DNA of 64,000 nt. It comes from Azolla caroliniana. Its lineage: Eukaryota; Plantae; Polypodiophyta. Of the stretch, positions 27,074 to 56,548 are shown piece by piece. Numbering within the stretch: the stretch's first letter is position 1; each line of letters opens with the position of its first letter. The translations under genes and the position numbers were made by a program. The notes beneath the pieces were generated by a model. It saw only the letters and a program-made list of their open reading frames with translations, searched no databases and was not told where the DNA came from. Where the stretch lies: positions 28,768,001-28,832,000 of the forward strand of contig JBHGNT010000001.1 in assembly GCA_043228905.1 (NCBI GenBank), given 5' to 3'.

Positions 27074-29180
27074 CCGCCTCTGGCACAAGTGAGTGTGGTC
27101 ACCTTCAGCATTGAGAAAAGGCCACCTCAACTTGAATGAGTAACGATATTTTGCTGCATTTGGGCGGTGTTTGTAGAGAGACGTGGCAATTCTACTTGTA
27201 CTCAGATGTGCTATTTATTTGTGTGAAGAGAGGGATGGAGAGTGAGATCGCACACATGTATCATGAGCAAAGGGTCTGTTTCCACTTGCGTTGGATGTAA
27301 AATATCAATTAACCTGATCCATATCAGCTGTATTTTGCCTTGAAGTTTCTAATGTATTCCAAACTTACACAAAGATTGTTGCCAGTATTATAGGTCATCA
27401 TTGATCTATTACTTTAGCACATCCTGTAATAACTTGACAAATAGTTAGGTAATCAAGAAGAAAATAGTCTTTTTCCCCAATGGACGAGTATCAATGCATA
27501 GTTGAAATGCTTGTCTTATGCAATGCAAATGATTAATTGGCAAGTGTTATTATTTGATGACAACCTCATAATTAGGTCTTTGGACGGAGATGGTGATGTA
27601 TTGTCCTTGTGAGGCCAGTGAATCATTACCTTAGAAGAGTTCCTACTGTGGCTCCTGTGTTTTTACAAGGTGATTCATACTTTCTAGAAGATTATGTATA
27701 TACATACCATAGAAGTGCTGGCAGTTGTCAGTTACTTGGAGAAGTGTTGATTTTTGTGGATGTATATGGTTGCTCTCATGCTTTGAATGGTTTGGTGAAA
27801 ATCAAATTGTCAGATCACCCATGGATTTTATAGTATTTACAAAAAGAAAGTGTTGGTTATCCATTTGAATAGAGGCAAAGTCATGACAGAATGCCCCTTC
27901 ACGAAAATGTAATTCGTCTAAACTCTTGGGTGAATTTCCTTGAGCAATTAGGAATACTTTTGCTGCGAAGGAGCAAAAGCTTGTTTAAAGAAAACCTAAC
28001 AAAATAATAAATGGAAAAAATCTAGGAATATTTGTGGTGCTTGCTCACATTTTAAGATGTATGAAATTTGGCAAGTACAATAATAATATCAGTGGGATGT
28101 TTTATGTAATGTTGAACGTAAGGGTCAATTTAGCCCCATAGTTATACACCATGCAATGTTCGGTGGGACATTGAAAGGTTCCTTCTCTAGGTTTGTCACG
28201 ATCATTGATAATCCATTATGGCAAATTGTAGTAAAAAGAGATTTACAGGATGTTACTTTTGGGCCTTGGCTGTAATGTGGTGTCTTTGTTGGAGCTTGTA
28301 TATATTATTATCCATGAACATTGTATTCTTTCCCATACATTGGGTGAAAACCAATAATCCCACAGTGTCTTATGGATTCTTCATAAGTGAGCCATGTGGA
28401 TATATTTGATGCAAACTAATGTCTTATAAATTTGATGTATGGAATTAATTCCATGATTTGTTGGTAGGTTACACATTTTGATTGAGCGAATATAGATCTA
28501 CATGGAGCAAATTGAAAGAAATCTTTATCATGAATGGCAAATAAATATGAAGTTTATAAAGGTTGGGGATTGATTGATCCATGATAACAGTTGAATCCAA
28601 ACTTCACATGAATTCTTAAGCAAATAGACATCACATTATCTAATAGTAAAAAGTTAGCTTCAATAATGTACCCTAGATTATCTAAGTCCATTTCTTAAAG
28701 TGAGTGTCTTCTCAACGATGAGTTTGCATGGGATTGTAGTAATTACTACAAGAACAAATTGAGACATCATATAATCAAATTACAAGTGTATCTTGAACTA
28801 CATTATAATCTCTTCTTAGCAATGAATACGAATGGAACTCTAATAACCGTGACAAGAATGATTGACATATCATAGAATCGTTGAACCAAATCTAAGGATA
28901 CATTAATGTTTACTTGAGTGCGAACTTGCATGTGATTGCAACAGCTTTTACAAGGAGAATCTAGATATTATTTAATCCAAAAAACAAATGTATACATACG
29001 GATCGAAATGATACTCTAGAAAAGAGTCGATTCATTGTTGATCAAGGCTAGCAAGATATATTGGTTATGAAGTCTCGCGGTAGCTTAGAGTTTAGAATAT
29101 GAGGGGCTAACTCTGTAATTTGAAGTAAATGGTGATTCATTTCCTCAACCAGCAGCAGCAGGAGCTATGGTGGCAGCATC

Positions 29181-32100
29181 ATGGTTCTCTGGCTCTTCAG
29201 ATGGCCACAAAAAAGCTTCACAAACGCCCCTTGTCTCACACAGAAACGCAGTGTTCATAGTGATTCCGAGATCAGTGCTGCCCAACCTAGCCCGTATACT
29301 TTTGTATGTCTTCTAAAAGCGTGTGGAAGTATTTCTGATGTTCAAGAAGGTATGAAGCTCCACATGAATGCAGAAGAGAGAGATTTTACGCGGGACGTCT
29401 ATGTGGGAAGCACTCTCGTGAGTATGTATGGAAAGTGTGGAAGTTTACCGGACGCAGAATGTGTGTTCTTTCATTTGCCACAACGCAATGTAGTGTCATG
29501 GAATGCAATGCTCGCCTCTTACGTTTGGAATAGTGCGTCAGAGAAGGCGATCAAGCTTTACCGACAGATGCACGAGGAAGGTGTAAATGCAAACCCTCTT
29601 ACTTTTGTGGCTGTCCTCAAAGCATGCAGCTTTGATGCTATTGCTGATGCTGATGATGGTTCGGAGAAAAGATTGAGCTCTTGCCAAATAGGACGAGCAC
29701 TACATTCGGATGCTCGTAGGAAGCTTTTGGCATCAAACGCATTTGTTGCAAACACACTTCTTAGCATGTATAGCCGATGTAAATGTGCTAATGAAGCAGA
29801 AAATGTGTTCCTTGGGCTATCAGCACGAAGTATCATTTCATGGAATGTGATGCTCTCCTTATATATGGAGCAAAACGAATGTGTGAAAGCGCTCCAATTG
29901 TACAGGAAATTACATGAGGAAGGTATGGATCCAGACCATGAAACTATGATGCTTGCCCTGCAAGCATGTTACAGTTTCGAAGAGAAAGGAGAGACCATAG
30001 CAAAAAGAACGGTTCCTGTCAAGATCTGCCAAGCAATACAGGTTGATGCTTGGAAGAAGGGATTCAGATCTGATGTCATTATTGGAACCATGTTTATAAG
30101 CATGTACAGCAAGTATGATGACATTGCAGAAGCTGAGAGTATTTTTGCTGCATTATTAGAGCCTGATATTGTGGCTTGGAATGCCATGCTCTCAGGGTAT
30201 GTTAAGCATCAGCAAGAGCATAATGCTTTTAAATTGTATGCACAAATGCAGGAAGAAAGCATATGCCCGGATGAGTGGACATTTGTGGCCTGTGTTCAAG
30301 CATGTGCCAGCCTTGCATCGAAGGAAGAATCAACCAGACAGATATCACTAGAGATTGGCCGGGCACTACATGCTAATGCTCGGAGGAAAGGGTTTGAGGC
30401 AAGAATCTATGTGAGCAATGCCCTTATAAGTATGTATGGGAAATGTGGAAACATACCAGCAGCAGAGAACGTGTTCAGGAGGATGCTAGAGCATGACATT
30501 ATCTCCTTGAATGCATTGCTCTCAGTGTATGTGGAGCAGGGCCAAGAGAATCTGGCTCTGCAGTTTTACTTACAAATGCATAGCAAAGGTCTGGTTCCAG
30601 ATGTGATGGGCCTTGCGACAGCTCTGCAAGCATGTGGAGATTTTGTTGATAGAGAAGAACCTTTTGTACTGAAAGGAAGCTCAACTAAATATATATTCCT
30701 GAAGATTGGAAGGGCATTACATGCCGATGCCTTGCTCAAGGGATTTGACTCAAATATGTTTGTTAGAAGCACTCTTATAAGTATGTACTCTAGGTGTGGA
30801 AAAATAATAGAAGCAGAGAATGTCTTTCTCAAGGCACCCAAGCAAGATGTTGTGTTATGCAATGTCATGCTTTCTGCCTATCTTGAGCATAGACAAAGAA
30901 AGATGTCCTTACAGTTGTTCAGGTTAATGCAGGAACAGAGTTTCTATCACGATGATGAACGGACAATTGTCCTTGCACTGAAAGCTTGTTGTCTCGATGC
31001 TGATGATTTGATCGGAGGGAAGATTAATGTAGAATCCTGCTTGGAAATTGGCCAGGCAGTGCATACTCATGCCTGGACAAAGGGTTTTACGTCAAACATC
31101 TTTGTTGCATGTACCCTAATTAGTATGTATAGTAGGTGTGGATGTATGCTTAAAGCTGAATATGTATTTGAGAAAATAACAAAGAGAAATGTTGTGGTGT
31201 GGAATACAATGCTCTCAGCATATTTGGAGAGAGGTGAAGGACGGAAGACTTTGCAGCTCTACAGAGAGATGCAGCTGGAGGGTGTAAAACCAGATCAACA
31301 GACCTTGGTCACTGCCCTTCAAGCATGTTGTACCCTTGCTGAGAAGGGGACTGCTGAGAAACAAGGGAGGCCAATGAAAAAGGTTGTGTTGGAAATAGGC
31401 CAGGCACTTCATGTCGATGCCATGAACATCAAAGGTGCCTCCACAGATGCATTTGTTGGCAGCGCTCTTGTCACTATGTATGGCAACTGCAATGCTGCAT
31501 GTGAAGCAGAAGCTACATTTTACAGCCTTCTTGAGCATAGCCTTGTCACATGGAATGCAATGATTTGCATATACGTCGAACAGAACAATTATGAGAAAGC
31601 TATACACCTCTACGTGCAAATGATCAAGGATGACCAGATGATCAATGATGTCACACTCGTTTGTATCCTACAAGCTTTCATAGGAATCGGGAGCTTGGAG
31701 GCATGTTACCAGATTAATTTCATCATTGTTCTTGGTGAAAATTATTCATGCCCTCTTCTGTCAACTAGTCTCATCCATGCATACGGGAGCTCTGCATGCA
31801 TGACAGATGCCGAGGCAATTTTGAATGGGCTGTTTCAGCCTGATGTTGTGTCTTGGAGTTCGTGCATTGCGGGTTTTGGGCGGGAGGGAAACTATGAAAC
31901 AAGCATCCAGTTTTTAGAGAAAATGAACATAGAAGGCATTGCAGCAGATGAACTGACATATTGTTCATTTCTCTCTAGCTGCAGTCATACTGGCCATGTT
32001 GAGAAGGGTTTTGAAATATTTGTGTCAATGATCAAAGACTCAGCTATAATACCAGAGTTGAAACATTATGCCAGCATAATAGACCTCCTTGGACGTGCAG

Positions 32101-32345
32101 GTAAGTGCGCAAAAGCTGAAGAAGTATTACAAAAATCCCCAATGCAACCTGACCTTGCTGTTTGGTTAAGCCTGCTTAGTGCATGTTGTCTACATAGCAA
32201 TGTGGAGGTTGCAAGACATGCGTTCATTTCTGCAGTCCGTCTTCAACCTGGCGACCCTGCTGGTTATGCCTTGATGGAAAATATTTACAGACAATGTGAT
32301 TCCATGGACAAATCGTATGGAGTGGACCATGTTGCCCACATATAG
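29181..32345 (+). CDS. PLS-class pentatricopeptide repeat protein with E1/E2 domains and no DYW (organellar RNA-editing factor type), 1054 aa, intronless
   Basis: Repeated P-L-S triplets (VVSWNAML.., PLTFVAVLKAC, VYVGSTLVSMYGKCG) end in HYASIIDLLGRAG...PDLAVWLSLLSAC...GYALMENIY. The exact start codon is uncertain. Confidence 0.93.
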   Translation: MVLWLFRWPQKSFTNAPCLTQKRSVHSDSEISAAQPSPYTFVCLLKACGSISDVQEGMKLHMNAEERDFTRDVYVGSTLVSMYGKCGSLPDAECVFFHLPQRNVVSWNAMLASYVWNSASEKAIKLYRQMHEEGVNANPLTFVAVLKACSFDAIADADDGSEKRLSSCQIGRALHSDARRKLLASNAFVANTLLSMYSRCKCANEAENVFLGLSARSIISWNVMLSLYMEQNECVKALQLYRKLHEEGMDPDHETMMLALQACYSFEEKGETIAKRTVPVKICQAIQVDAWKKGFRSDVIIGTMFISMYSKYDDIAEAESIFAALLEPDIVAWNAMLSGYVKHQQEHNAFKLYAQMQEESICPDEWTFVACVQACASLASKEESTRQISLEIGRALHANARRKGFEARIYVSNALISMYGKCGNIPAAENVFRRMLEHDIISLNALLSVYVEQGQENLALQFYLQMHSKGLVPDVMGLATALQACGDFVDREEPFVLKGSSTKYIFLKIGRALHADALLKGFDSNMFVRSTLISMYSRCGKIIEAENVFLKAPKQDVVLCNVMLSAYLEHRQRKMSLQLFRLMQEQSFYHDDERTIVLALKACCLDADDLIGGKINVESCLEIGQAVHTHAWTKGFTSNIFVACTLISMYSRCGCMLKAEYVFEKITKRNVVVWNTMLSAYLERGEGRKTLQLYREMQLEGVKPDQQTLVTALQACCTLAEKGTAEKQGRPMKKVVLEIGQALHVDAMNIKGASTDAFVGSALVTMYGNCNAACEAEATFYSLLEHSLVTWNAMICIYVEQNNYEKAIHLYVQMIKDDQMINDVTLVCILQAFIGIGSLEACYQINFIIVLGENYSCPLLSTSLIHAYGSSACMTDAEAILNGLFQPDVVSWSSCIAGFGREGNYETSIQFLEKMNIEGIAADELTYCSFLSSCSHTGHVEKGFEIFVSMIKDSAIIPELKHYASIIDLLGRAGKCAKAEEVLQKSPMQPDLAVWLSLLSACCLHSNVEVARHAFISAVRLQPGDPAGYALMENIYRQCDSMDKSYGVDHVAHI

Positions 32346-34134: not shown

Positions 34135-37100
34135 TTAGTGCACCATATCAATGTGTAAGCTTAAATCCCGTTCACTGTGTACAGCCAATCCACATATTGG
34201 ACAGGCTATAGCCAACGAACTCCTAAAAGAGGAATTTAGACTACTAGCAACTTCAGGTAAATGTTCCTGTGGAGTACTTTCCATGAAGTGTTCACTATCC
34301 AGATGAGCATTAAGTTGTACTTCTGCAGCTGTACCCTCAAATGTACAGCTGCAAATAGGACATTTGCTGATGATTGGAGATCCTATACTTGTAAGGGGGC
34401 TTGTGAATGCAGTGTCAAAGGTTCCAGACAATGATGGGGTGGTTTGCCTTACTCCATCAAGAGATGACTTAGGATTGTGGGTGGCAACTTTATGAAGATC
34501 CATTTCTTTAAGCATGACTGCACGGCCACACAATTCACAAGGAGCTGTTCTTGAGCCACAGATAGACTCATGTTGTGTTAATCCATGTAACTTATCCCTT
34601 ATGTTATCTACTCCTGCACCAGCTTGAACCATGTCACCACAAAATCTGCATATAATTATTCGCAATGGACAACTATCTGCCTGATGTTTAACCTGAACAA
34701 GCCAGACAAAAGAATGTCAACAAAAAATGGCTAAGCTCACTACAACTTTTGACACCAATTCAAGCCTTCCACTTTACCATTTCATCTCTTTCCAAAGTAG
34801 CACCACATCCACAAAGCTGGGGCTGGTGATAGACTTTCAAATGCTTTGGAAGTTCATCTGAATGCAAGGATTCACCGCATTTTGGACAATGCACATGTTT
34901 CTTGAACTCCTGATGTCTTAAAACAACACCACAGCCTGGATGATCACAAACAATGTTATGGCGCCTGCAATATGCCTCGTGTAGGGAAATCGTTCTGGTT
35001 GGAATTGCTTGCCTACAGTTTCCACATATCTCAAATCCTGTTTGCACCTCAGAATCACTGGCACTATGAGCACCGAGTCGCTGTACACTTGCCTGCACAG
35101 GTGGCTGTGAGCGGACCAAAATTTTGAATGAAGAATTACCTTGGTAGCCAAACACACCAATACTAAAAGAACTTGCTGACAATTTCTTCTGAGCACTCAT
35201 CAAGTGAATTGTCTTTGAGCCGATATCATGAGAAGCCCATTGATGTTGATGTTGAGTTGGAAATAACATTGGATGTGCTGCTATATATAAATCTGCATCA
35301 TTTGTAATCCCCCCACCCTCGATTTCCAACTGGACATTCACATCTATGTCCCCATTATTGGCAGCATCTCGAAGTTTCTCGTCAAGACTGAACTTGAAGT
35401 ACTTGTAGGCACCTTCTTCTACATATCCATTCTCGGGCTTGTCTATTTGAAGAGGTACTAATCTGCCACTCTGGGAGGTCGAACCTGGGGAAGAAATGGC
35501 TGGAACCACATCAACTTCCATGTCTGTCTCCAATACTGACACATTTGAAGACGGTTTTAATTCTAATACATGCAGCACATACTCTACTCCTCCATGTTGA
35601 ACAACTAGCACATTCCCCTTGGAAAGAGTCGCATGCTGCCTAAGCTTTGTTTCCAAAACAGCTTTATGGTTCGGAACATCTGCAAATTCTGCAACCTCAG
35701 GCTGAAGTTTCGCATAGGTACATTTAGGCAGCCTCACATATCGAATCCTGATAAATGGCCCTGTAGATGTTGATGTAGCTGTGTTAGAAAGGCCAACGTT
35801 TTTCCACACATGTGAGGGTAACTCTGCATATCCCTCTGGAGCAGTGAACTGCAGAACACCAGAATGAGTGCTTCTTTCCATGGTCTCATTCATCTCATCC
35901 CCATTGTCGAGTGAAATTTCAAAAAACATAGGCCCTTTATCTAGAGCTCCTTGAGAAGAAAGGTGCTCAAATGCTGATGGTGGTAAATTTATTTTATCTC
36001 CTTCCCGTGCAACAAAGGTAGACTGAAGAACAACATTGAACCTGATACCATCTCCCACATGCAGGTCACTCTCTTCTTGAATTCTGGCCTGAAAGATTTA
36101 AAATAAAGAATATAATGGATGCTCAATTTTATTAATTTCAATTGTAATATCTCTCCCTGTCATGTCTCCTATATCTATGACTATTTCTATCTCTTAGAGA
36201 GTTATATTATTAGCTAACAAGAATATCTGGTATTTTAGGCAGTTCAATTTGATTACATTTATTTTCCCCTCTCCCCTTCATCCTCTCCTCCTCACTCAGC
36301 AATTCCTGTGCATAAATAAATATAGAACCACAAACATTACCAGTTAATTGCTCATTTAGCCTTTTATATTAAACCATACTTAATAGGGCACCCCATTATC
36401 TTATAGCTTATGGAGCACATGTTTCTAATATAAAGCAATGGTCAAGACCCCAGTTCAAAGGGAATATAAGCCCCTACAACCTCTAAGTGAAAAGAGTCAC
36501 ATGCCTGTATTAGAAGGACGATTTCAATCTCTTTGGTCCTAGAATTGGAATCCTAGTTCAGGAAAATTAGTGTAGGTATTCTCATCAATTTCTTAATGTT
36601 TAACTTATTTGCAAAATAAATGCTATAGAAGTTAGTTCCCAGGAACTTGTGGTAGATCTGATCAATTATGCAAGATTATTGTGCTCGAAAGTTGAATAAT
36701 ATAAGTTTTTTTATTCCCGGCCCGTTACCAAATCTATTGCCAATAATGAGCCATGATATCTAAAATATCCATTCCCGCATCAGTATCCTAATCGAGAAAA
36801 GAATCGAATTTGTGAGGTCCACAAAGAAACAGACCACGAATTGATATGTAAAACCCTTGCAAAATGTGTGATTGAACTGAGAGTAGATTTAATTAAGAAA
36901 TTTGATCCAAGTCCATTCACTTAACATTTGAATGAGACGAATGAATAAATGAACAAAACGAATGAAAGGATTGGAGACCTGTGCAGCAGCCTGGGATTCT
37001 TCGATGCGGCGTTGTCGTTGGGCAGTCTCGAGGGCTTCTCGAAGCCGGGCAGCCTCCTCTCTCCCTTTCCTCTCCCGATCAGCGCGAGCCTTCGCCTCTG

Positions 37101-39636: not shown

Positions 39637-39745
39637 GCACGCGTGCCCTGGCTGACGTCAGCAAAACCCAAGCGGGCGCCTCCCATTGGCCCAACGCTGG
39701 CCCTATGACGTCACAACCAACACCTTCTATCACCTCATGACGTCA
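39637..39745 (+). promoter_or_regulatory. Cluster of three perfect TGACGTCA palindromes plus GCACGCGTGC in the proximal promoter of the homeobox gene
   Basis: GCTGACGTCAGC at 39651-39662, TGACGTCA at 39706-39713 and 39738-39745, GCACGCGTGC at 39637-39646. A pyrimidine-rich 5' UTR-like tract follows. Confidence 0.6.
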
Positions 39746-40323: not shown

Positions 40324-43205
40324 ATGACGTTTTACAAGTTCAAAGGACTCGATACAGGACGTATTACTTGTCACTTGGAATCTCATTCTGATTCCGAAAT
40401 CCAAGCTCTCAATGGCAATACCACTAACTGCCGTCAAACAGGATTCAAGATCAAAGAGACCACCACGGCCGCCATCACTGATCATCGTGAACATGATAAC
40501 CTTCGCTTGGACTCTCTTTCTGATAATTCAGGTTTTAAAATCTTTCGTTACTAGTTAGAACTGAAAGTATCTGTGATAGATCGGTCATGGATTAATATCC
40601 ACGTAGTTCCTTATTGATTTTGAGATGTGGCCAGGACTGTTTGGTGTCGATGGATGTATAGCCACCGATACTATGACGACAAAAAGAATACGTTCACTCG
40701 GGAGGACTAGCTGTATTCCTCCTGCAATGTCCAGCACTAGCTGTCTTGATTCTTCTAGATCTGATCAGACATATCATAATCTGAAACTTTGCACGGCATC
40801 AGGTGCACGTTTAACCATCAGATACAAAAAACATCGGCCAGAGCCTACTCATGACCACAATCTCAAAACGCCTGCAGATTATTTCTGCATGAGCGCAGCT
40901 GACAACTCCACATTTAGCACAGCAGCAGCTATAATAAGTTGTCACAACACAGCTAACAGTCAGTTATCGAGTGAGTTTAACGAAAGCTCAATATACAATA
41001 CCTGCACTGATCCTGTTGAAACCTCTGGTCATATCAATCCTGTTGCTGCGGTCTCTGAGGCCAAATCATCCTCACAGGATTTCGGAAATCTGTCAAAAAG
41101 CCAATGCGTTGCTATACTACCAGAGGCGTCTGCTTGCACTGACGATCCGCTGGCCAGCATGATGATGGATGGCGAAGCTGCGCCACACCTCATTAACATT
41201 GATCATGAGCAGGAATATTGTCAACATTTAATTAGTTGGCCATTGACTATTGCAGATGATGTGAGCAGTTGTAGTTCAGCCTGCGGCTCAAATAGAGATC
41301 TAATTCCACAGTTTAATGGTTTAGAAGCTTGCACAGACCTTCCACAACATCATGTACCCGCTGAATATAGTGGCAGCTGGAAGAACCTCTGTGACAATCT
41401 AGGAGAGTCTATAGAAGATAAAAACATAATTGATCCCCGTTCTTCTCCGTATATTTATGTTGATCCTGCTGGGAACTATGACATTAATTATATGGAGCAG
41501 ATAAACTGTTTCCATGACCTGGTTGATCATGACATATTCAGCCACGACGCAGATGGGGATGTTCCAGGAGTTTCATTTCTACGCTCTGATGGGATGTTTA
41601 TTGAGAAGCAGGCGGACATCTGGTCAATTTACAGGCCTGAATTGGATGCACAGATTGAGATGTTAAACCGGAACCTCCCAGATACTCTAGCACGTCTTCA
41701 AGAACTACCAGGCACCGCTTCTGCTGATGCCACTGTTGATGTATCTGCTGATGAAGCCACAGTTTCTAACTACTTTCATGAAGACCAATATCTGTGCTTG
41801 GAGGTTGATCAGACATACCCGGAGCAGAATATGCGAGATGTGCCCGACATGAGTTCCTTCGCTCAGAGTTCATGGACTGCTTTCTTTGAATTAGATCATC
41901 CAGCAGCACCTCCTTGCTGCCAATTAGAACAAACACATGACAATGGAGATCAACCACCATTGAAGAAGTTGCAGGAAGTTTTACAATATAGCACTAGGCA
42001 AGACTCCTTCAGTGATAATTTATCACTAGTCACGTGCTCCGCCAATATCCAGTCAGATAGTACTGCATCTGGCCGTGCTATAGCCATAACGAATAAATGC
42101 AAGAAGTTGAGAAAGAAAAGGAAACGAAGAATTAGTCCATTGCCTAGTAACATAGTACAATGCCTGTTGTCAAGTGGAGATCATCAATGTATTCATGTGA
42201 GCCAAGCGGTCACGACTGATCGTGATCCCCCAACCCCTGTTGATAATCATCAATATGGCGGCCAGCCACCTCTGGATGCAGCGCGGGTGCTCCTGCGCTC
42301 TAGTCCAAGAAAGATAAGGTGCGCCAGCAAGGGCTTGATGAGGACTAATACGAATACAAATCATTATAAGGAGCAGAATGGTGTGGGCATCAGCCATAGT
42401 ATATTAAGCACGACATCGAATGATCCCGCTGACTCCAGCTGCTTCTGCTGCCTACAGACGGTTCAGCAGCTGCCAGTAGCTCATGTGGACGAGGCCCACA
42501 CTCTATTAGACGGTATACCAATGTCTAGTAATTCCGACAGTGGACGCTCTATTCACGCAGATACTTCCTGTAGTAGGGCCAAGAGATCTTCTACCCAGCA
42601 ACATGGCACTTACCGCAAAAATGTTCACGAGATGATTGCCGGCGATAATATTTACAGTCATGGAGATGCTTTAACGTCGGCAGGACAGCCAGCTGATAAC
42701 CTGAAACATCGAAGAAGAAGCAGGAGCTCAGGATTGAAAAGAAAGAAGGCGATCAGCTGTACTAGTACAGTAGCTGATAATCGATGTGAGTCATATAACA
42801 ACATTAAAATGGCACCACCCCGAGCTTCTTCATCTTCGTTGCTTCCAGAGGCCGCAGTGACTGCCATGCGCAATTGGTTTGAAGAGCACATGGATTTCCC
42901 ATTTGCAGATAAGGACCAAAAGCGCGACCTGGTTTCGGTTACTGGATTGACACTTTCGCAGGTCTGCCCTACCTGTGGTATTCTCATAGAGGATCTATTA
43001 ATCCGATATATGGTGTTTAGTTGTAAGTTCGGATCCACCATGAATTTCTAGTTAAGTTACTGCTTATTAATTTCCTTGTGACCTCCCGTTATAGGTGGAG
43101 AATTGGCTGTCGAACTACAGACACAGACTAAAGATCAAGAAAACGGATTTCCTGCAAGGAAGAGTGGTCGGTAGTTTTAATATGTATGCGAAACTGACAA
43201 ATTGA
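40324..43205 (+). CDS. Divergent TALE-class homeodomain protein (BELL-related), ~881 aa; 5' end uncertain
   Basis: Exons 40324(acceptor 40316)-40531, 40635-42961 and 43095-43205 join in frame. The C-terminal homeodomain reads LLPEAAVTAMRNWFEEHMDFPFADKDQKRDLVSVTGLTLSQ|VENWLSNYRHRLK, with an intron at Q|V. Basic NLS-like stretches KKLRKKRKRR and KHRRRSR are present. Confidence 0.78.
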
Positions 43206-44549
43206 CAAGGATTTAAAGTAGTGCGACACAGAGTTAAATCTGCAGTAATATAGTCCCTGCCGTTTCATTCATCATGATCTCCACCACAATAAAGTCGATG
43301 GCTCAGTCCATACTTTTCACCGATGATCATTCTTTCATTCTCTTTGAACAGAAGTATTGAAGACAAAATGCAGCGTATTTTCTAGTTTACTAAAACCTGG
43401 TTGTACTTAACCTCCATTTTGTCCCCCCCCAAAAAAAAAAAAAAAAAACAAAACACACACACAATTCTTCTTCTTTTTTCATGATGATATATACATATAA
43501 TGACAGCTGTTCTTCTTCTTCATTGGTCATATAATCATCTGAGAAATGTGAAGTGTGTGTGTTCTTCTTCTTTGTATTCTTGGTCATGTGAAGCTGCCAC
43601 CCATTAATGTTCTCCGAGAGACAAAATATGGCATCTTTTAAATTGTGAGGGTATACACTCCATTTTCTGTTTGAAAAATAACGAAGAGAACGTTGACGCC
43701 CACATTATAAATAGATGGATATGCATATAAAGTTTGAACAATATACCCTTTGAGTTGGCCACCGAATCACTTCCAATATCACATATAATGCTGCTTCTTC
43801 AGATGTAACCCGACACATGCGTTGCCTCGTTCGAACTTCCAAATGTACTTGTATGCTGAGGGAAGATAGACGATTGGAAATTTGACCAGTATTCCAGCTG
43901 TAGGTTACACCGTGGTGGGTAAAAGAATGAAATTACAGGGAATCTCATCGATTAAAGCTAGATCAACCTGAGCTCTAGATTAAGAACGCGTTGAGTCCAG
44001 ACTCCAGACTATAGAAATTATGCACTCTCTGAGTTTAGAAAGAAAAATCTTCAGACCTATCGGATATGCAGAAAACTAACTTATCTTATTGGGGCCGAAA
44101 TGAAGATTCCACTAAAGTGTTATGGAAAAGTTGATAAAAAAGCACGTGCGAATTACTAATGAGTGTGAAACTTCATGGATTTAATAAAACGAAAAACGAA
44201 TGGTAGATGATTCAGGAAGTTACTGTGGTTGTGAATGATGTGTTGGGTAAGCAAAAGGCTCCCAATGCTCATGATCAACAGAAGGGTATTAAGGGCACAA
44301 AGAACATTTCAAATTTCTTTACTAGAAGCTCAAGGACGAACGATTTGCCTTTGAATAACGAATCACTAACTACTAAGAGGAATCATTACATGTTAGAAAA
44401 AGAAGTAGAGTAAAGGAAAATTGCTAACTTACGAAGCTATGAAACGTGAGACCTCTTTCCCCCCTTTACAAAAAACAAACAAGGCAATTGAAATACACTT
44501 CCTATCCCCCATATGTTTCATCTACACTTTTGGTTCATTTAATCAATGA

Positions 44550-48170: not shown

Positions 48171-51100
48171 ATGGAGACTATGAACGCGCGTAGTGCTCAA
48201 TCTAGTCGCAGTACGAGTAATTCGAGCAGTGATCAAGCTTCCAATTCTTCTGCGGGCTGGGAGAGATTCCTTCCTCCTCGACCTCTCAGAGTCCTTCTTG
48301 TTGAAGAGGACATCGCCACTCGCCAGATTGTCTGTGCTTTGCTTTCTAAATGTGGCTATGAAGGTAAACCGATTTTTCCTTTCCCTTCCTTTCCCTTCTC
48401 TTTGTATTTCTCTCTCTTTCTTTCTGCAGAACTCTAATTGGGGCTACGAACCTAACATTCTTGCTTTTGTTCCTTCTCTACCCTTATAGTTTCTGGATCT
48501 TTCTTTGTTTTTGCCGTTCTGCAAGCCGTTGCAAAACTCGTTTCTTTGTTCTCTTTCCTTTCACAGTATCTATGCATTAGAAAAGAGCATATTTTCAAGA
48601 CTTTTTCCGATCTATCACCATATCCATCGTGTACATGGATCTCCTTATTTCTTTCCACATAAATTTTTATCGGTCAGGAAGAGAGCTTTTTCCCAGTGCT
48701 TCTCTATTTTTTCTTTTTATTCCGCCAATTTTTCCACATGTGAAAGGTCTAAATGTTTTTGTTACTGTAATAATGCAGTGCGACCATCTACTGACAGTGT
48801 GACGGCATGGAATCTTCTGGAGAATTCTCCCACCAAGTTTGATCTAATATTAGCTGATGCATTTCTGCCAGATACATCGGGAAATGATCTTCTCTCCAAA
48901 ATCATGTCACATGAGTCTCACAAGAACATACCAGTCATAAGTAAGTGTTGAAGACAGTTGAGCAAATGTGGTTATTTTCGCGTTGAATTTCTTATTAACG
49001 CGAAATGCTATCCCTCAATATCTTATGTCCAAGACGTTTCCTATTTACAAGCCATTTCCGGCTCAAATGTGCTGTTTTTCAGTGATGTCTTCTCAAGACT
49101 CCTTAGACGTGGTCTTCAAATGCCTCCTAAGAGGAGCTAAGGATTTCCTTGTGAAGCCTCTCAGGAAAAATGAGCTCCGAAACCTTTGGCAACATGTTTG
49201 GAGGAAAAATCGCGAGGTGAGCTCTCATTTTTCTGTCATAAATAAGCATGTTAGTAAAATATCTGATTATTTTTTGTAATTAAGTTTTCATACATGCGTA
49301 AATGTTACATTTTCAGTCATGAATAGGTTGATGTGTAGGTAAATATCTCATTTTTTGGTCACAAATAAGTGTTGCATAATATTGGAAGAATTGTCACATT
49401 TTGGGGGAGAATAAGCTTGAAATTTGTGTATCAGTAAATATCTCCCTTTCCATCTTGAATAAGTTCATAATATTGACACATATTTCCAATAAATAAGTAT
49501 CGACATATAGTTCCAACCATATACAAGTTTGTGCATAGGTAAATGAAGACAGTTTACCTCTCAGGCTATATTTTCTTTCAGAACTCCATCTGCCCTTTCT
49601 GATCTTCGTCGTTTAACTTTCAGTCTAGCAGAATTGAAAATGGAGAATCTGCTCGAGGTCATAAGAGAAAAGCAACAAGGATATCCATGTCGAGTTCAGG
49701 GGGTAATTCTAGTGATGGATTCTCCATTAGTGGTGGAACTGCCACTCAGGTACTCGCCTGATTGTCATGCTTTCGTCTTCCATATCTGTGGTTTCTATTT
49801 TTGTTTTCTTGAAACAATGTTGGGTTGCAATATGTTTAATAGAACTCAAATATACAATTTCATCTGGACTTGTGTGCTTGCTAGAGAAAGAAGCTTAATT
49901 TGGTTACATTTTCAACATGCTAAACCAGTTTTCGTTCATTACCAGTCATTAATAATCTGACAACCATTGAATAATTCCATAAAATTTAGAATGGCCTAAG
50001 TTTATTTGCACATGTAATTGTACATGCTGTACATACTCAAATCGACATTTCCAACATAGCTATTTGAATTGAGGCAGGTTGTAAATTCAGAGGCAGTTCA
50101 GTCACAAAAAGAGGAAAAGACTTCACACAGAGAAGTGATAATTGATCAAGATACTTTGAAATGCGAATTTGGTAAGTGAATACACGCTAGCTTTAATGTC
50201 ATGTAAATTTGTTATATAATGATGACATTTTCACTTACATAATTCAGTCTCATATTATAATCAAGGTTCACGCACATTGGAGGAAAAAGAGGATTACTCG
50301 AGCAATTCGGATGATAAGGAGGATTCGGAAAGGTCAGCTAAAGCAATTGACTTAATTGGAACCATGACAGAACATCCCATTTTCGACAGAAGCCAGCCAA
50401 ATTCTGAGAGTGAGAAGTCTGTACTAACAAGATCTCATCAATCTCTCCCCGTATTGGAGCTCACTTTAAGAACATGCTCAAAACAACAGACACAAACTGA
50501 TCATAATGGACAAACAAGTGTACAACAATCATATTGCTCAGCTTTTTCAAAGTATGTTAGTCTATCCAAGTTTCCTCTCAAAGATATCTGAGATCAGGAC
50601 AAAATTTCAGTATACTAGAAACTACGTAGTGTCCCGTGTCTAGTTAATTGGCTACCATGAAGAAGTTAGCATAGATGGGATGTACATGTACTCTCTAAAT
50701 TTTCTATTGGCATTTGGTGAAAAATGATATATCCTGCTATGAAACTCTAGTATTAATTTTCCTTTTCCTTTTTCTACGTTTTTAATAGATATATTAGCAA
50801 TGTAACCTCGCCACAACATCAATCCATTTTCAGAAGTGTAGTCAGTCTTCCGAGTGATCATAGCTCACACAGAGGTGGTATTGATGGAAGTTGTGGTGCA
50901 TCAACATTACATTTTCCCCAAGCCATCCACTTCAGCCATGCTGGAAAACAAGGGGCTTCTGCTTTATCTTTAATCGCATCCTCAAGCGACGAGAATATGA
51001 GGCAGCCCCCCATCCACGAGAACTCCCTATCAAGTTTCAGAACCCCCTCGATGAATTCAACGACGATGAATGGGTCTAATCATCCCTCCAATAATAAGAC

Positions 51101-52275
51101 TCCTTTGAATGGATCTGAGAATGGAGATTGTGGTCCTGGTGATGCTCAATCCATGGATCAACCTAGTGCTCACCCATGTCCTTCAGTAAACACTGATAAT
51201 GTAGAATTGAATCAGCGAAACATTCATTTGCATCAATCAGCTACAGTCGTCGATGGTGCTTCTAATATAGAAAACAATGCATCAGTGCATGAGATGCCAA
51301 GTCATATGATGGCTAGTAGTGGAGGAAGCAATTTATGTGAGGATTATCGGACAGGAAAATCAGTTAATTATGGTGGGAGTGGTAATTGGGGGGGTAACTT
51401 TGGTGGAGGTAGTGAGGAGAATAGTATGGCTGATTGCTCCAGACCCACTACTAATACTATTGCTGAAGATTTAGAGCAGCTGAAAGCCAATGATTACCGG
51501 ACAGCTTTTCGGCAAGCAGCTCTCAACAAGTTCCGGCAGAAACGAAAAGTCCGATGCTTTGAGAAGAAGGTCAGTCCAATTTATACATATTTAATTTGTG
51601 AAAGCTTTTGGACCTGATACCTTTGTATGTTTGTCACCAATATTTTGTAGCATTAAGAAATTGAAATACCAAATGTCCCTAGCTTCTAGTCTTGCATATA
51701 TCATACCATAAAGTGTAGGAAAATGGAGTTGTTCAAAAGCTCTGAATTTCACCTTAGAAAACGAAAATCTTGATTGGTTAAATTTCTTAAATTTCTTAGT
51801 ATTCATGGTTTGCATCTAGATATCTGGTAGCTTTTGAGAGAATCCATTGATAAAAAAATGAGAAATTTTATTTGTTAAAATTTCTTAAAATCCTTAATAT
51901 TTGTGGTTTTGTTCATAACTTTAAAGAGAAGAAATCTGACAAACTGATCGAAAGTATGAAAACTTGTAAAGATATATTGTAATAAGACTTAAAGAAAAAC
52001 TTGTGAAAGACTATATGTAATAGACAGTGGAAAAATTATGATAAACCAACCATATTGTAGTGCTCTGATTGGGTTAGCCACATTGCTGTGTTTTTCACGT
52101 AATTAAAAGTTCATGTCCTACGGTGTGAAAGCTCAAAAATAAATTAGGCTTGGGCAATTTTCAGGTTCGATACCAAACCAGAAAAAAGCTTGCTGAACAA
52201 CGCCCCCGAGTTAAAGGTCAGTTTGTACGCCAAACTGCGTACAATGCAGTGACTCTATTACAACCTGATGCTTGA
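48171..52275 (+). CDS. PRR: Pseudo-response regulator (PRR3/7-type clock protein; receiver-like + CCT), ~634 aa, 8 exons
   Basis: Exons 48171-48363, 48779-48940, 49083-49216, 49624-49749, 50078-50171, 50248-50551, 50789-51569 and 52165-52275 join in frame. Motifs: [88 protein letters not shown] domain: [20 protein letters not shown]|[20 protein letters not shown]. Confidence 0.93.
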
Positions 52276-53419: not shown

Positions 53420-56350
53420 TCATGACCTATTGTTCAATTCTGTTGAAAAGTTTGGAATATATTCACATCCTGCAAATAAATACAATGTCTCCTCTTCAAA
53501 TTCCTTGGAAGGATACCAACAGACCTCAGGTACATTTTCCTCTTGTAAAGAGCTTCCACAATAATTTGAAGTGAGCATATGCAAAGTGGGAGGAGTTACT
53601 TGACGATCAAAGCAATACAAGCCAAGCTCCTCCTCATCATATAGCTTGCAAACATGTAACAAAGCCCTCCAGACAACAATATCTGGAGGCATAGGCATTG
53701 TTTGAAGCAAATAACAGGCCTCTTTCAAAGCTCCTGTTCTCCCAAGAAGATCAACAATGCACCCGTAATGCTCAAGGCTTGCATCAATGCCATGTTCGCC
53801 TTTCATTGATTTGAAGTAGCAAATAGCTTCTTCAACAAGACCCTCATGGCAACAAGCAATCATCATGTTTGTGAATACCAACTCATTTGGCTTTATCCCT
53901 TGAATTTGCATGTCTATAAAACACCTTCTTGCAGGATTGATACTTCCACATCTGGCATACCCGGCAATCAAAGCGCCCCATGATGAAATTTCTCTATAAT
54001 GCTGTAAAACATCGAAGAGCACCTGCGCTTCTTCTAGATGCCCACATTTTGCGTACATGTCAACCAAAGCACTCGTAGAAATTCCAGTATCCGATTCGTC
54101 GCCTTGAAGTAGTAGACAATAATGAATCAATTTTCCTTGCCGTATTGCTCCAATATTGCCACATGTTCTCAAGATGGTAAGGAAAGATATATTGCTGGGC
54201 TTCAAACCCTTCGTTTGCATTTCCTCAAAGAGTTCAACGACGACCAAATCATTCCCACATTGAGCTTGTGCTATGAGCATTATACTCCATGAGACCATAT
54301 CCCTATCATTCAAACTCTCAAAGATTTTTTGTGCATCTTCAATATGCCCACAATTTGCATACATGTCCATGAGAGCATTTCCGACCACTACTACGTCACA
54401 TTCTGACCCACACCTTAGAATCTTGTCATGTGCTAGCCTACCTTTATTTATAACTTGGATATTTCTGCATGCTTTCAAGATGCATAAGAAAGTGATTTTG
54501 TTGGCTTTAATGTTTGCTTGTTTCATTTCGTCGAACAATTTTAAGGCATGATATGGAAGATTTTCTGCATATCCACCAATCATCGCTGTCCAAGCTGTCA
54601 CATCTGCATTACTTAGTCTTTCAAATATTTTGTGGCCTTCGATTAAACTTCCATGTTTCACATATAAATCAATAAGGATGCTTCCAAGGACATCTTCAAA
54701 CCTCTCTTTAACTATCTTATGATGTACCAGTCTTAAATTATGAATGGTTTCACAAGCTTTCAAAACGCACATGAATATAAATGCATCTGGATTTTCACCC
54801 TTCAATTCCATATGTTCGAATAGCTTGTAGATTGAACCCTCGTGTCTATGTCTCATATAACCATTAAATAGAGCACCCCATGCCATCTTATCACAATTTA
54901 GCAATTTATCAAACATGAACTGTGCTTCCGTAAAACATCCACACTGTGCATAGAGCCCCACAATGAGACTCCCAATGGCACCATCTGACTCTAGTTGATT
55001 TCTTATGATTTGATCATGTATTGTCCTCCCTTGTATTAATGCCCCGATGTTGCTACATCCTTGTAACAGATATACATAAGCAGCCTTGTTTGGATGAAAT
55101 TTTTTATGTTGCATCTTTTCGTAGAGAAGAAGAGCAAAATCCTCAGCTCCGTGCTGAATATATCCCTTGATCAATACAACCCATGATATGTCATTTAGTT
55201 CAGGAAGCTGATCAAAAACCTTTTGTGCACATTCGAGGTTAGCACATTGAGAATACATATCAATCAATGAAGTGCCCACCACAAGATCTTCATGAAACCC
55301 TTTCTTTACAACTTGATCATGTATGATGAAACCCAACATTGTAGACTCGACTTTCACACTAGCTTTCAAGATGGAAGAATATATGGATTTGTCAGCTTTC
55401 AGTCCTTCTCCTTGCATCAACTCATACATTTTGAGTGCACGGAAACCATCACCTTCAGTGGCATAGCCAGATATTATTGTACCCCACGCAACTAGATCTT
55501 TCTTTGGAAGAATATCAAACAATTGTTGAGCCTCTTCCATGCATCCATGCTTTGAATACATGTCAAGAATAACGCTACCGAGCTCCTCATCGATAACACA
55601 CCCAGTTTCTATTATATGTGCATGCATAATCTTCCCTTCGTGTACAAACCCACCATTAATGCAAGCCTTCAATGTAGCCATGAATGTGGCTTTGTTTGGC
55701 TGGATGCCACTTTGAAGCATGCCATCATGGAGATGAAGCGCAAATGCAGCATCATGATCCTCATTACATCGAGAGAATGAAGCTATGATGATGGTCCATG
55801 AGACCACATTAGGACGACATATTTTTATAAACATACGATATGCTTCCGTTAAGCTAGCACATTTGGCATACATATCAACAAGTGTATTAGCAAGCTTGGA
55901 ATCACACTCCAGGCTACTTGATATTATCTGATAATGAACCATCCGTCCTTGATCAAGCTCCTTTAAGGCTCCACATGATTTCACGGCAGCCAAGAGGGTG
56001 ACAACATCTGGTTGTAGTCCACGTTCTTGCATCTCCCAGTAGAGCTGGAGAGCTCTCTGTTCTGACCCGAGGCGGACATGGGCGTAAATGATGGAGTTCC
56101 AGGTGAGGATTGTGGGTCGAGGATGGTGGGAGAAGGCATAGTCGCATTCGTTTAAGCTGCCACACGAGGCGAAGAGGCGGATAAGATGGTCAGAGAAGCT
56201 GGGGATGGATGAATCCATTCCAGCGAACGTTAAGAGAGAAAGCACATCCCTCGCACACATCAGATCCCTCTTCTGTGCACATTCCTGGAGGTGCAGGTAG
56301 AGAGATTCCCTTGAGAAGAAGCCATTGGGACAGCCACTGGGCCATCTCAT
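53420..56350 (-). CDS. PLS-class PPR protein with E1 and a degenerate E2, no DYW; ~976 aa from ATG 56350 (a further upstream exon is possible)
   Basis: Regular P-L-S triplets (ANTLVDMYAKCAS, VVSWTIII, ATFMATLKAC) end in HYGCIVDLLGRTG..MPMPPDIVVWRALLHVC. The frame stays open to a splice-acceptor-like TTTTTTTTAG at 56420-56411. Confidence 0.9.
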   Translation of the reverse strand: MRWPSGCPNGFFSRESLYLHLQECAQKRDLMCARDVLSLLTFAGMDSSIPSFSDHLIRLFASCGSLNECDYAFSHHPRPTILTWNSIIYAHVRLGSEQRALQLYWEMQERGLQPDVVTLLAAVKSCGALKELDQGRMVHYQIISSSLECDSKLANTLVDMYAKCASLTEAYRMFIKICRPNVVSWTIIIASFSRCNEDHDAAFALHLHDGMLQSGIQPNKATFMATLKACINGGFVHEGKIMHAHIIETGCVIDEELGSVILDMYSKHGCMEEAQQLFDILPKKDLVAWGTIISGYATEGDGFRALKMYELMQGEGLKADKSIYSSILKASVKVESTMLGFIIHDQVVKKGFHEDLVVGTSLIDMYSQCANLECAQKVFDQLPELNDISWVVLIKGYIQHGAEDFALLLYEKMQHKKFHPNKAAYVYLLQGCSNIGALIQGRTIHDQIIRNQLESDGAIGSLIVGLYAQCGCFTEAQFMFDKLLNCDKMAWGALFNGYMRHRHEGSIYKLFEHMELKGENPDAFIFMCVLKACETIHNLRLVHHKIVKERFEDVLGSILIDLYVKHGSLIEGHKIFERLSNADVTAWTAMIGGYAENLPYHALKLFDEMKQANIKANKITFLCILKACRNIQVINKGRLAHDKILRCGSECDVVVVGNALMDMYANCGHIEDAQKIFESLNDRDMVSWSIMLIAQAQCGNDLVVVELFEEMQTKGLKPSNISFLTILRTCGNIGAIRQGKLIHYCLLLQGDESDTGISTSALVDMYAKCGHLEEAQVLFDVLQHYREISSWGALIAGYARCGSINPARRCFIDMQIQGIKPNELVFTNMMIACCHEGLVEEAICYFKSMKGEHGIDASLEHYGCIVDLLGRTGALKEACYLLQTMPMPPDIVVWRALLHVCKLYDEEELGLYCFDRQVTPPTLHMLTSNYCGSSLQEENVPEVCWYPSKEFEEETLYLFAGCEYIPNFSTELNNRS

Positions 56351-56548
56351 CTCAAACTTGTAAGTAAATCCTCCATTCCTGCACAGGTCACAAAATCTAC
56401 ACTTCCGCACCTAAAAAAAACACATAAAAGGATTCATTTTAAAAAACTGTGGATTCCCCAATTTCCATGAGGCCTCTTCTTCTTCTATATCTTGGGTGAG
56501 CATTGCTGTAATAATCCAGGGTGAATGTCAAAGCAAGTCTCACTCAAA

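What the first reader, a model, noticed from the sequence alone, without database searches (positions are those of the whole stretch)
40324..43205. Orphan-like, highly divergent TALE homeobox gene: candidate non-canonical BELL/GLX-type factor
Seen: a ~880-aa protein whose only recognisable domain is a C-terminal TALE homeodomain, split by an intron at LSQ|V. Established: that intron position and the LPE.AV..(L/M)R.W start are typical of BELL genes; canonical plant TALEs have PYP in the loop, WFIN.R in helix 3, and an upstream SKY/BELL (POX) or KNOX/ELK domain. Here the loop is PFA and helix 3 is WLSNYR (Ser at position 50, Leu for the conserved Phe). I see no POX/MEINOX domain in ~800 aa of acidic, low-complexity sequence. 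Inference: this is either a lineage-specific TALE with altered DNA specificity, or a relative of the divergent gamete-expressed BELL/GLX factors (Chlamydomonas GSP1, Marchantia BELL2-5) that pair with KNOX to start the zygotic/sporophyte programme.
Basis: partly seen in the sequence, partly recalled or inferred. Interest (0 to 1): 0.8.

Follow-up and report, generated by a model that had tools for sequence, protein, structure and literature searches.

The report
Overlooked fern-and-conifer TALE homeobox lineage
This spliced fern gene encodes a homeobox regulator that groups with neither KNOX nor standard BELL proteins but with a separate family shared by ferns and conifers, and it likely acts during spore formation and early embryo growth.

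Summary
The gene is real but not an orphan. It encodes about 881 aa with a C-terminal TALE homeodomain (loop PFA; helix 3 WLSNYRHR, so L49, S50, H54) and no POX, KNOX or ELK domain. One contig joins the homeodomain intron, and helix 3 is unchanged in a related species. Homologues occur in Ceratopteris (2), Adiantum (2), Taxus and Cryptomeria. All share WLSN.R and form one clade (98/97 and 100/99) apart from canonical BELL and KNOX. Fern members also share an N-terminal predicted beta-hairpin and a basic motif. The gene lacks the BELL-specific 24(2/3) intron that all 7 canonical BELLs of this genome have. In published Ceratopteris data both homologues are rare transcripts that peak in mature fertile fronds; one also peaks in embryo-bearing archegonia. 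Best reading: an old, POX-less third TALE lineage, likely a reproductive-stage transcription factor with altered DNA specificity. Its origin is unresolved: AU tests do not reject descent from BELL or KNOX, and Marchantia BELL2-5 and GSP1 could not be placed in the tree. Ten paper searches found no description of the clade.

The parts
39653..39745 (.). Three TGACGTCA palindromes (39653, 39706, 39738) upstream of the gene; candidate bZIP- or TALE-type cis-elements (motif assignment recalled)
   Evidence: The only 3 copies in the 64-kb window; 3404 in 523 Mb, so about 6e-4 such triples within 93 bp are expected genome-wide (my Poisson estimate). Function untested.
40324..40531 (+). Probable exon 1 (ATG 40324); coding status not proven
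   Evidence: An X4 contig covers 40313-40478. A relative shows 4 listed changes in 208 nt versus 19 in 226 intron nt (p=0.002). No junction contig and no protein homology.
40532..40634 (+). Probable intron 1 (GT..AG, 103 nt)
   Evidence: In-frame splice option. The relative has a 1-nt insertion at 40617 and a change at 40630 that turns the codon after the in-intron ATG (40625) into a stop.
40635..42961 (+). Exon 2: motif A, acidic tract, basic motif, homeodomain helices 1-2
   Evidence: Lies within an 814-codon open frame; homology to the fern family.
40772..40831 (+). Motif A (aa 116-135, core TASG..LTIRY), predicted beta-hairpin; likely a partner-binding module
   Evidence: Score 63.5 versus shuffle maximum 25.2; pLDDT 68-83; all 4 changes in the relative are silent or K>R. 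Present in 4 of 5 other full-length fern-type members.
40967..41926 (+). Acidic, predicted disordered tract (aa 181-500); likely activation region (inferred)
   Evidence: D+E 17%, net -43; pLDDT almost all below 50. All 7 homologues checked have a 150-aa stretch of net -18 to -32.
42101..42142 (+). Motif C (aa 559-572, KKLRKKRKRRISPL); likely nuclear localisation signal (inferred)
   Evidence: Matches the fern RKKRLRRATPL motif; 0 of 100 shuffles as high.
42827..42961 (+). TALE homeodomain, helices 1-2 with PFA loop; no 24(2/3) intron
   Evidence: PF05920 23.6 bits on the partial domain; 7 of 7 canonical BELL loci of this genome are interrupted here.
42962..43094 (+). Intron 2 at homeodomain position 44/45 (GT..AG, 133 nt)
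   Evidence: Spliced contig in X1. The JGI protein P0002 leaves homology at the same LSQV point.
43095..43205 (+). Exon 3: recognition helix (N47 W48 L49 S50 N51 Y52 R53 H54 R55) and stop
   Evidence: 0 listed changes in the first 78 nt versus 14 in 123 intron nt in the relative (p=0.001); WLSN.R in 8 of 8 clade members.

Best explanation
This single-copy, spliced fern gene belongs to a conserved POX-less TALE homeodomain clade shared by ferns and conifers, and it likely works as a low-abundance transcription factor at spore formation and early embryo development. Shown: the gene structure at the homeodomain, the clade, the missing POX/KNOX/ELK domains and missing 24(2/3) intron, conserved motifs outside the homeodomain, purifying selection on helix 3 and motif A, and (published) reproductive-stage expression of the Ceratopteris homologues. 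Inferred: the basic motif takes the protein to the nucleus. Helix 3 keeps W48, N51 and R53 and so binds DNA, but S50 and H/Y54 in place of BELL I50 and V54 shift the preferred site away from BELL/KNOX targets. The acidic disordered tract activates transcription. The N-terminal beta-hairpin replaces POX as the partner-binding surface, with KNOX the likeliest but untested partner. I put the clade at about 0.9, the reproductive role at about 0.6 and KNOX pairing at about 0.35. For origin I slightly favour survival of an algal-like (GLX-type) non-KNOX paralogue over derivation from canonical BELL.
For: Homologues: Ceratopteris KP509_18G025400 and KP509_13G048000; Adiantum GOP47_0019832 and GOP47_0002720; unnamed P0008, P0002, P0001; Taxus KI387_000977, Cryptomeria SUGI_0963270. 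Ceratopteris P0006 finds only this locus in the genome. Homeodomain identity is 55-65% to fern members, 45-47% to conifers and 32-36% to BELL. Clade support is 98.7/99, 98/97* and 100/99* in three trees. L49, S50, H/Y54 and K57 occur in 8 of 8 members and in 0 of 17 BELL/KNOX rows. POX is found in 2 of 2 BELL controls, 0 of 7 family proteins and not in P0041. N-terminal homology. pN/pS is 0.56 overall (p=0.046) and 0.26 around motif A. Expression: both Ceratopteris genes are sporophyll candidates of cluster 3 (mature sporophyll, meiosis GO terms), and 13G048000 is also in notch cluster 3 (embryo-bearing archegonium), all FPKM<1 (PMC13434465). A GLX-Basal prasinophyte protein has a PFP loop and WFSNTR (PMC6219170 supplement), and one of two Klebsormidium GLX genes has the 44/45 intron only.
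Against: No expression pattern exists for this gene itself: one low-depth spliced contig from a run only guessed to be RNA. The Ceratopteris signals are FPKM<1 in bulk tissue, and the candidate lists are long (2098 sporophyll and over 7000 notch genes). The trees do not settle which Ceratopteris paralogue is the orthologue (differ). The clade's sister group is unresolved: AU p=0.12 and 0.20 with BELL, 0.076 nested in BELL, 0.285 with KNOX. Selection is uneven: 5 replacements versus 2 silent changes in helices 1-2, and pN>pS before the homeodomain and in the tail. A 94%-identical metagenome protein is frameshifted (P0001). Fern-conifer homology outside the homeodomain is weak: whole-region HMM 14 and 64 of 300 shuffles as high; motif A 0 of 100 in Cryptomeria but 9 of 100 in Taxus. 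S50 also occurs in 3 algal KNOX rows, so it is not diagnostic of GLX. No bryophyte or algal protein appeared among the 13 profile hits.
Confidence: 0.55

Rival explanations
1. Origin rival: the clade is a fast-evolving offshoot of canonical BELL that lost POX and the 24(2/3) intron in the fern and seed-plant ancestor and now works without KNOX or as a competitor of BELL.
For: AU tests do not reject NC+BELL (p=0.12, 0.20) or nesting in BELL (p=0.076). It shares the LPE..V..LR.W start and the 44/45 intron. A long stem (1.7-2.1 changes per site) can pull a clade out of its group. The only other plant hits of the profile are canonical BELLs (3 of 13).
Against: Only 14 of 39 BELL-invariant columns are kept in all members. 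It has no POX, no RVRLWKP tail and no 24(2/3) intron, whereas 7 of 7 local BELLs keep the intron and tail. BELL is its own 100/99* group in the ML trees.
Confidence: 0.3
2. It is the fern counterpart of Marchantia BELL2-4 or GSP1: a gamete-delivered KNOX partner that switches on the zygote programme.
For: It is a large POX-less protein like MpBELL3/4 (PMC8476127). One homologue peaks in embryo-bearing archegonia. POX-less algal TALEs still pair with KNOX (PMC6219170).
Against: No sperm or egg expression was found. Both homologues peak in mature fertile fronds, a meiotic rather than gamete stage. It has one homeodomain, whereas MpBELL2-4 have 2-3. No liverwort or moss protein was among the hits.
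Confidence: 0.25
3. The family is real, but this copy is decaying in a lineage that may reproduce mostly clonally (relaxed selection, incipient pseudogene).
For: Longest end branch among the fern members (0.56-0.6); pN/pS 0.75 in helices 1-2 and above 1 in flanks; frameshifted close relative P0001; motif B degenerate here (16 of 100 shuffles as high).
Against: Intact 881-codon frame, canonical splice sites and a spliced contig; 0 changes in helix 3 and silent or conservative changes in motif A; the relative's two listed in-exon indels keep the frame (24 nt left out at 41720; 3 nt put in behind 43206, past the stop).
Confidence: 0.12
4. The clade entered the fern and seed-plant ancestor by horizontal transfer from a fungus or protist with a PBX- or CUP9-like TALE gene.
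For: The conifer homeodomain scores best against PBX1 among solved structures (45.8 bits versus 43.9 for PKNOX1). The nearest Atlas clusters are mostly fungal (scores 0.76-0.84, leads only). No bryophyte or lycophyte member was found.
Against: No non-plant sequence joins the clade with support. Score gaps are small, no plant TALE homeodomain appeared among the solved-structure hits for comparison, and the 44/45 intron is common in plant non-KNOX TALEs.
Confidence: 0.06

Closest known systems
Canonical land-plant BELL/BLH (POX + TALE homeodomain)
   Same: TALE homeodomain at the C-terminus, LPE..V..LR.W start, 44/45 intron, W48/N51/R53.
   Different: No POX; no 24(2/3) intron; PF(A/P) loop in ferns and PY(T/A) in conifers instead of PYP; WLSN.R(H/Y)(R/K).K instead of WFINARVRLW; 32-36% homeodomain identity; separate clade.
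Marchantia BELL2/3/4 (BELL-gamete) and MpBELL5 (GLX-basal), PMC8476127
   Same: POX-less non-KNOX TALE factors, large proteins (BELL3/4), reproductive expression.
   Different: [quoted passage not shown] Direct sequence comparison was not possible.
Algal GLX/GSP1 and Class-B TALEs, PMC6219170
   Same: 44/45 intron; one GLX-Basal protein has a PFP loop and S50 (WFSNTR, like conifer WLSNTR).
   Different: No PBC Pfam hit; GLX-Basal rows seen keep F49 and the R.W.P tail, which this clade replaces with L49 and a basic tail.
KNOX I/II
   Same: TALE homeodomain; N47.
   Different: No MEINOX or ELK; KNOX loci here have the intron after WPYP(S/T) and none at 44/45; I50, K54.
Animal PBX/Exd (PBC class)
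   Same: Small residue at position 50 (G in PBX), NPY loop in conifers, R.R(Y/F)K after N51, 44/45 intron.
   Different: No PBC domain; the resemblance is confined to the homeodomain and is only 2-4 bits above the MEIS/PREP matches.

Membership tests
TALE superclass | Homeodomain with three extra residues between helices 1 and 2 | tested here: met
   PF05920 in the gene and all homologues with the full domain; gap-free alignment to PKNOX1, MEIS and PBX.
Canonical BELL | POX (SKY+BELL) domain upstream | tested here: not met
   controls positive in 2 of 2.
Canonical BELL | 24(2/3) homeodomain intron | tested here: not met
   Absent here; present in 7 of 7 BELL loci of this genome; BELL-specific per PMC6219170.
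Canonical BELL | PYP loop and WFINARVRLWKP helix 3 (I50, V54) | tested here: not met
   PFA and WLSNYRHRLKIK.
Canonical BELL | Homeodomain nests in the BELL clade | tested here: inconclusive
   Outside BELL in 3 of 3 ML trees, but AU p=0.076-0.20.
KNOX | MEINOX and ELK domains, intron after WPYP(S/T) | tested here: not met
   The AU test alone does not reject sisterhood (p=0.285).
GLX (GSP1-like, GLX-basal) | PBC/PBL-homology domain N-terminal to the homeodomain | tested here: inconclusive
   No PBC Pfam hit at E<=1 to 10; the PBL profiles of PMC6219170 were not available to run.
GLX (GSP1-like, GLX-basal) | 44/45 intron | tested here: met
   shared with many classes, so weak.
BELL-gamete / GLX-basal | Homeodomain groups with MpBELL2-4 or MpBELL5 | not testable with these tools
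   No tool returned these proteins; the paper's alignment is a figure and its source file has no text.
BELL-gamete | Expression in sperm or egg | tested here: inconclusive
   Homologue data cover fronds and notch only; 0 hits in two other papers' supplements.
BELL / GLX | Heterodimerises with KNOX | not tested
   No intact KNOX MEINOX protein was in hand for a complex prediction; needs Y2H or BiFC.

The most novel reading that the evidence does not exclude
Ferns and conifers retain a third, ancient TALE class, a survivor of the algal-type gamete/zygote homeodomain lineage thought lost outside bryophytes. It pairs with KNOX through a new beta-hairpin module, reads different DNA sites through S50 and H/Y54, gates both ploidy transitions (meiosis and the early embryo), and was lost in flowering plants.
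Probability: 0.27. Interest if true: 0.88.

Novelty: new variant of a known kind. Interest (0 to 1): 0.7.

Why it matters
[quoted passage not shown] A third conserved TALE clade across ferns and conifers changes that inventory. How ferns and gymnosperms switch between haploid and diploid programmes is open. This clade names two Ceratopteris genes (Ceric.13G048000, Ceric.18G025400) with fitting expression in a species with a published gene-editing protocol (PMC11638000, search listing only), so the question becomes directly testable. Fixed S50 and H/Y54 also give a natural test of TALE DNA specificity.

Tried and rejected
1) Word-index protein search with the partial homeodomain: 0 of 186 candidates scored; insensitive, later searches found the family. 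2) No RNA holder on record was listed; stretches without contig cover were not used as evidence. 3) ESM Atlas: only generic homeodomain clusters below 0.9; leads only. 4) Earlier findings of this scan: 0 in 5 look-ups. 5) Whole-region HMM test of fern-conifer N-terminal homology was not significant for Taxus and marginal for Cryptomeria; the motif test was designed after seeing the alignment. 6) The in-intron ATG at 40625 was rejected as a conserved start, since the relative has a stop in the next codon. 7) L035 (C3:6417472), a possible paralogue, has no open TALE exon set. 8) A bacterial promoter scan is irrelevant to a plant gene. 9) Gene-ID paper searches: one search was swamped by unrelated numbers; one search gave 1 paper, on poplar. 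Supplements of PMC11449451 and PMC9477723 had 0 hits (one scanned file unread). 10) AlphaFold models are mostly disordered, so no fold search was run. 11) No complex prediction was run. 12) 'WLSN' has 0 hits in the PMC6219170 tables, but cells are cut at 400 characters, so this is not evidence of absence from algae. 13) Absence from flowering plants, lycophytes and bryophytes is weak: one search scored only 7990 candidates at E<=1e-8 and only 8.

Full report
1. The sequence. An 814-codon open frame spans 40607-43051. Splicing 40324-40531, 40635-42961 and 43095-43205 gives 881 aa. The second intron (42962-43094, GT..AG) splits the homeodomain at position 44/45. One contig of run X1 joins it exactly (167 nt, depth 2.6, 31 nt on the short side; RNA status is a guess), and a probably-DNA contig of a related organism (X2) keeps it. 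Intron 1 has no junction contig. The relative's 1-nt insertion and a new stop after the in-intron ATG both fall inside it, and exon 1 is more conserved than the introns (4 of 208 versus 19 of 226). The loop is PFA and helix 3 is N47 W48 L49 S50 N51 Y52 R53 H54 R55. Pfam finds only Homeobox_KN. The upstream part is acidic only at residues 181-500, and 65 of 881 residues are low-complexity. That the host is a fern is inferred from the nearest homologues.

2. Genomic context. The 523-Mb assembly has 54 Homeobox_KN matches. Of 8 loci examined as BELL-like, 7 are canonical BELLs with PYP, WFINARVRLWKP and both the 24(2/3) and 44/45 introns. None of 11 POX matches lies on this contig. The gene looks single-copy: its own homeodomain and a Ceratopteris homologue each find only this locus.

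3. It is a family. phmmer over 1.84 billion proteins gave 21 hits, 7 of them family members: Ceratopteris KP509_18G025400 and KP509_13G048000, Adiantum GOP47_0019832 and GOP47_0002720, and unnamed P0001, P0002 and P0008. A homeodomain profile gave 13 hits among 7990 scored: 7 family members including Taxus KI387_000977, 3 canonical BELLs and 3 others. The Taxus domain found Cryptomeria SUGI_0963270 (2 of 8 candidates). Named records are annotated only as hypothetical, uncharacterized or homeobox-domain proteins. None of the family proteins has POX, KNOX, ELK or PBC. All 8 complete homeodomains share L49, S50, H/Y54 and K57, seen in none of 17 BELL and KNOX rows. PF(A/P) is the fern loop; conifers have PY(T/A).

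4. Outside the homeodomain. The candidate scores 25.1 bits against an HMM of five fern-type N-termini, with 0 of 300 shuffles as high. The signal comes from motif A and basic motif C; motif B is degenerate here. AlphaFold gives motif A as a beta-hairpin at pLDDT 68-83 in an otherwise disordered chain (699 of 785 residues below 50; helix 3 was not in the input), and at about 50 in Taxus, whose homeodomain folds at 84-94. In conifers the motifs lie in the same order but are statistically weak: motif A 0 of 100 (Cryptomeria) and 9 of 100 (Taxus), motif B 6 and 1 of 100, motif C 15 and 11 of 100.

5. Phylogeny. Three trees recover ferns plus conifers as one group: 98.7/99 (52 rows, LG+G4, read from the raw Newick); 98/97* (38 rows, after dropping 20 fast multi-homeodomain rows and the partial P0002 and adding 7 KNOX); and 100/99* (32 rows, six long rows dropped). 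BELL and KNOX are separate groups. The stem is long and the alignment has 67 columns. AU tests reject neither union with BELL (p=0.12, 0.20), nesting in BELL (0.076) nor union with KNOX (0.285). Marchantia BELL2-5 and algal GLX sequences could not be included. By eye, one GLX-Basal prasinophyte row has a PFP loop and WFSNTR, but 3 algal KNOX rows also have S50 (PMC6219170 supplement rows).

6. Selection. Using only the differences that read laying listed for X2 (40 of 185 rows, which I took as complete for 42686-43235; all 28 rows; contig ends are omitted; single contigs at depth 3.5-5.4), there are 16 silent and 30 replacement changes, pN/pS 0.56 (p=0.046). The ratio is 0.26 around motif A, with 0 changes in the 78 nt covering helix 3 versus 14 in 123 intron nt. 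It is 0.75 in helices 1-2 and above 1 in the flanks. P0001, 94% identical, continues in another frame after about 157 residues; this is an assembly error or a broken allele.

7. Expression of homologues. In PMC13434465 (passages, section 10 part 1, supplement rows), Ceric.13G048000 and Ceric.18G025400 are both sporophyll reproductive candidates, regulated only in 130-day fertile fronds, in cluster 3. That cluster peaks in mature sporophylls and is enriched for meiosis terms. Ceric.13G048000 is also a notch candidate in cluster 3, which peaks in embryo-bearing archegonia and holds CrANT and CrLFY1. Both genes are FPKM<1, and their rows list no Arabidopsis, Physcomitrium, Marchantia, Selaginella or rice orthologue. 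Two of two homologues in a list of 2098 genes is suggestive, not proof.

8. Mechanism. Positions 47, 50 and 54 set TALE specificity (PMC6219170); the animal TALE classes have I, G or A at 50 (PMC4901127 table). W48, N51 and R53 are kept, so DNA binding is likely, and fixed S50 and H/Y54 likely change the site. The basic motif, acidic tract and hairpin are read as nuclear signal, activation region and partner surface; all three readings are inferred. Three TGACGTCA palindromes lie within 93 bp upstream and may drive stage-specific expression. I commit to a low-abundance regulator of sporogenesis and the early embryo (0.55). Rivals: BELL offshoot, true gamete factor, decaying copy, horizontal origin; the first two concern origin and timing and partly overlap with the best reading.

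9. Literature and novelty. Ten searches found no description of this clade; the library lacks most subscription journals, and database annotation already marks these genes as homeobox genes. Passages read: PMC8476127 and its preprint, which sampled ferns and conifers and placed all previously described land-plant BELLs in one clade; PMC8478417; PMC5664125 (the three fern BELLs it characterised are canonical); PMC4901127; PMC2775110 (no fern or conifer genome in the abstract's list); PMC13708626; bioRxiv 2024.10.09.617452 (85; no homeobox mention). Verdict: a new variant of a known kind, interest 0.70.

Noticed in passing
window 39653-39745: Three perfect TGACGTCA palindromes in 93 bp, the only ones in the window, in unlike flanks (not a tandem repeat); genome background is 1 per 154 kb.
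   Followed up: partly
P0001 (ENA protein) versus window about 41090-41160: A 94%-identical relative shifts frame and stops early; possible loss-of-function allele of a reproductive gene in a close relative, or an assembly error.
   Followed up: partly
window 29136-32342 (+) and 53423-56410 (-): Two long single-frame PPR genes; the first has a weak E-motif hit.
   Followed up: no
window 34138-36097 (-): UFD1-like gene fused to XAF1/TRAFD1-type zinc fingers, the upstream neighbour in divergent orientation.
   Followed up: no
window 13449-15434 and 15482-16414 (+): Long open frames (662 and 311 codons) with no Pfam match at E<=0.01.
   Followed up: no
window 50757-51614 (+), 62851-63762 (-), 2-1033 (+): Partial CCT motif, partial SMP-domain match, and a reverse-transcriptase zinc-binding remnant.
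   Followed up: no
L008 and L009/L042: Two divergent class-II-like KNOX homeodomains in this genome; L009 has H for Q at position 52 and its upstream exon is one residue shorter in helix 1.
   Followed up: no
P0003, P0004, P0007, P0015, P0021: Proteins with several tandem TALE homeodomains (3-6 matched stretches) and varied residue 50; P0007 is from the diatom Cyclotella.
   Followed up: no
P0041: The conifer homeodomain is closest to PBX1 among solved structures, sharing H.SNPY and R.R(Y/F)K.
   Followed up: partly
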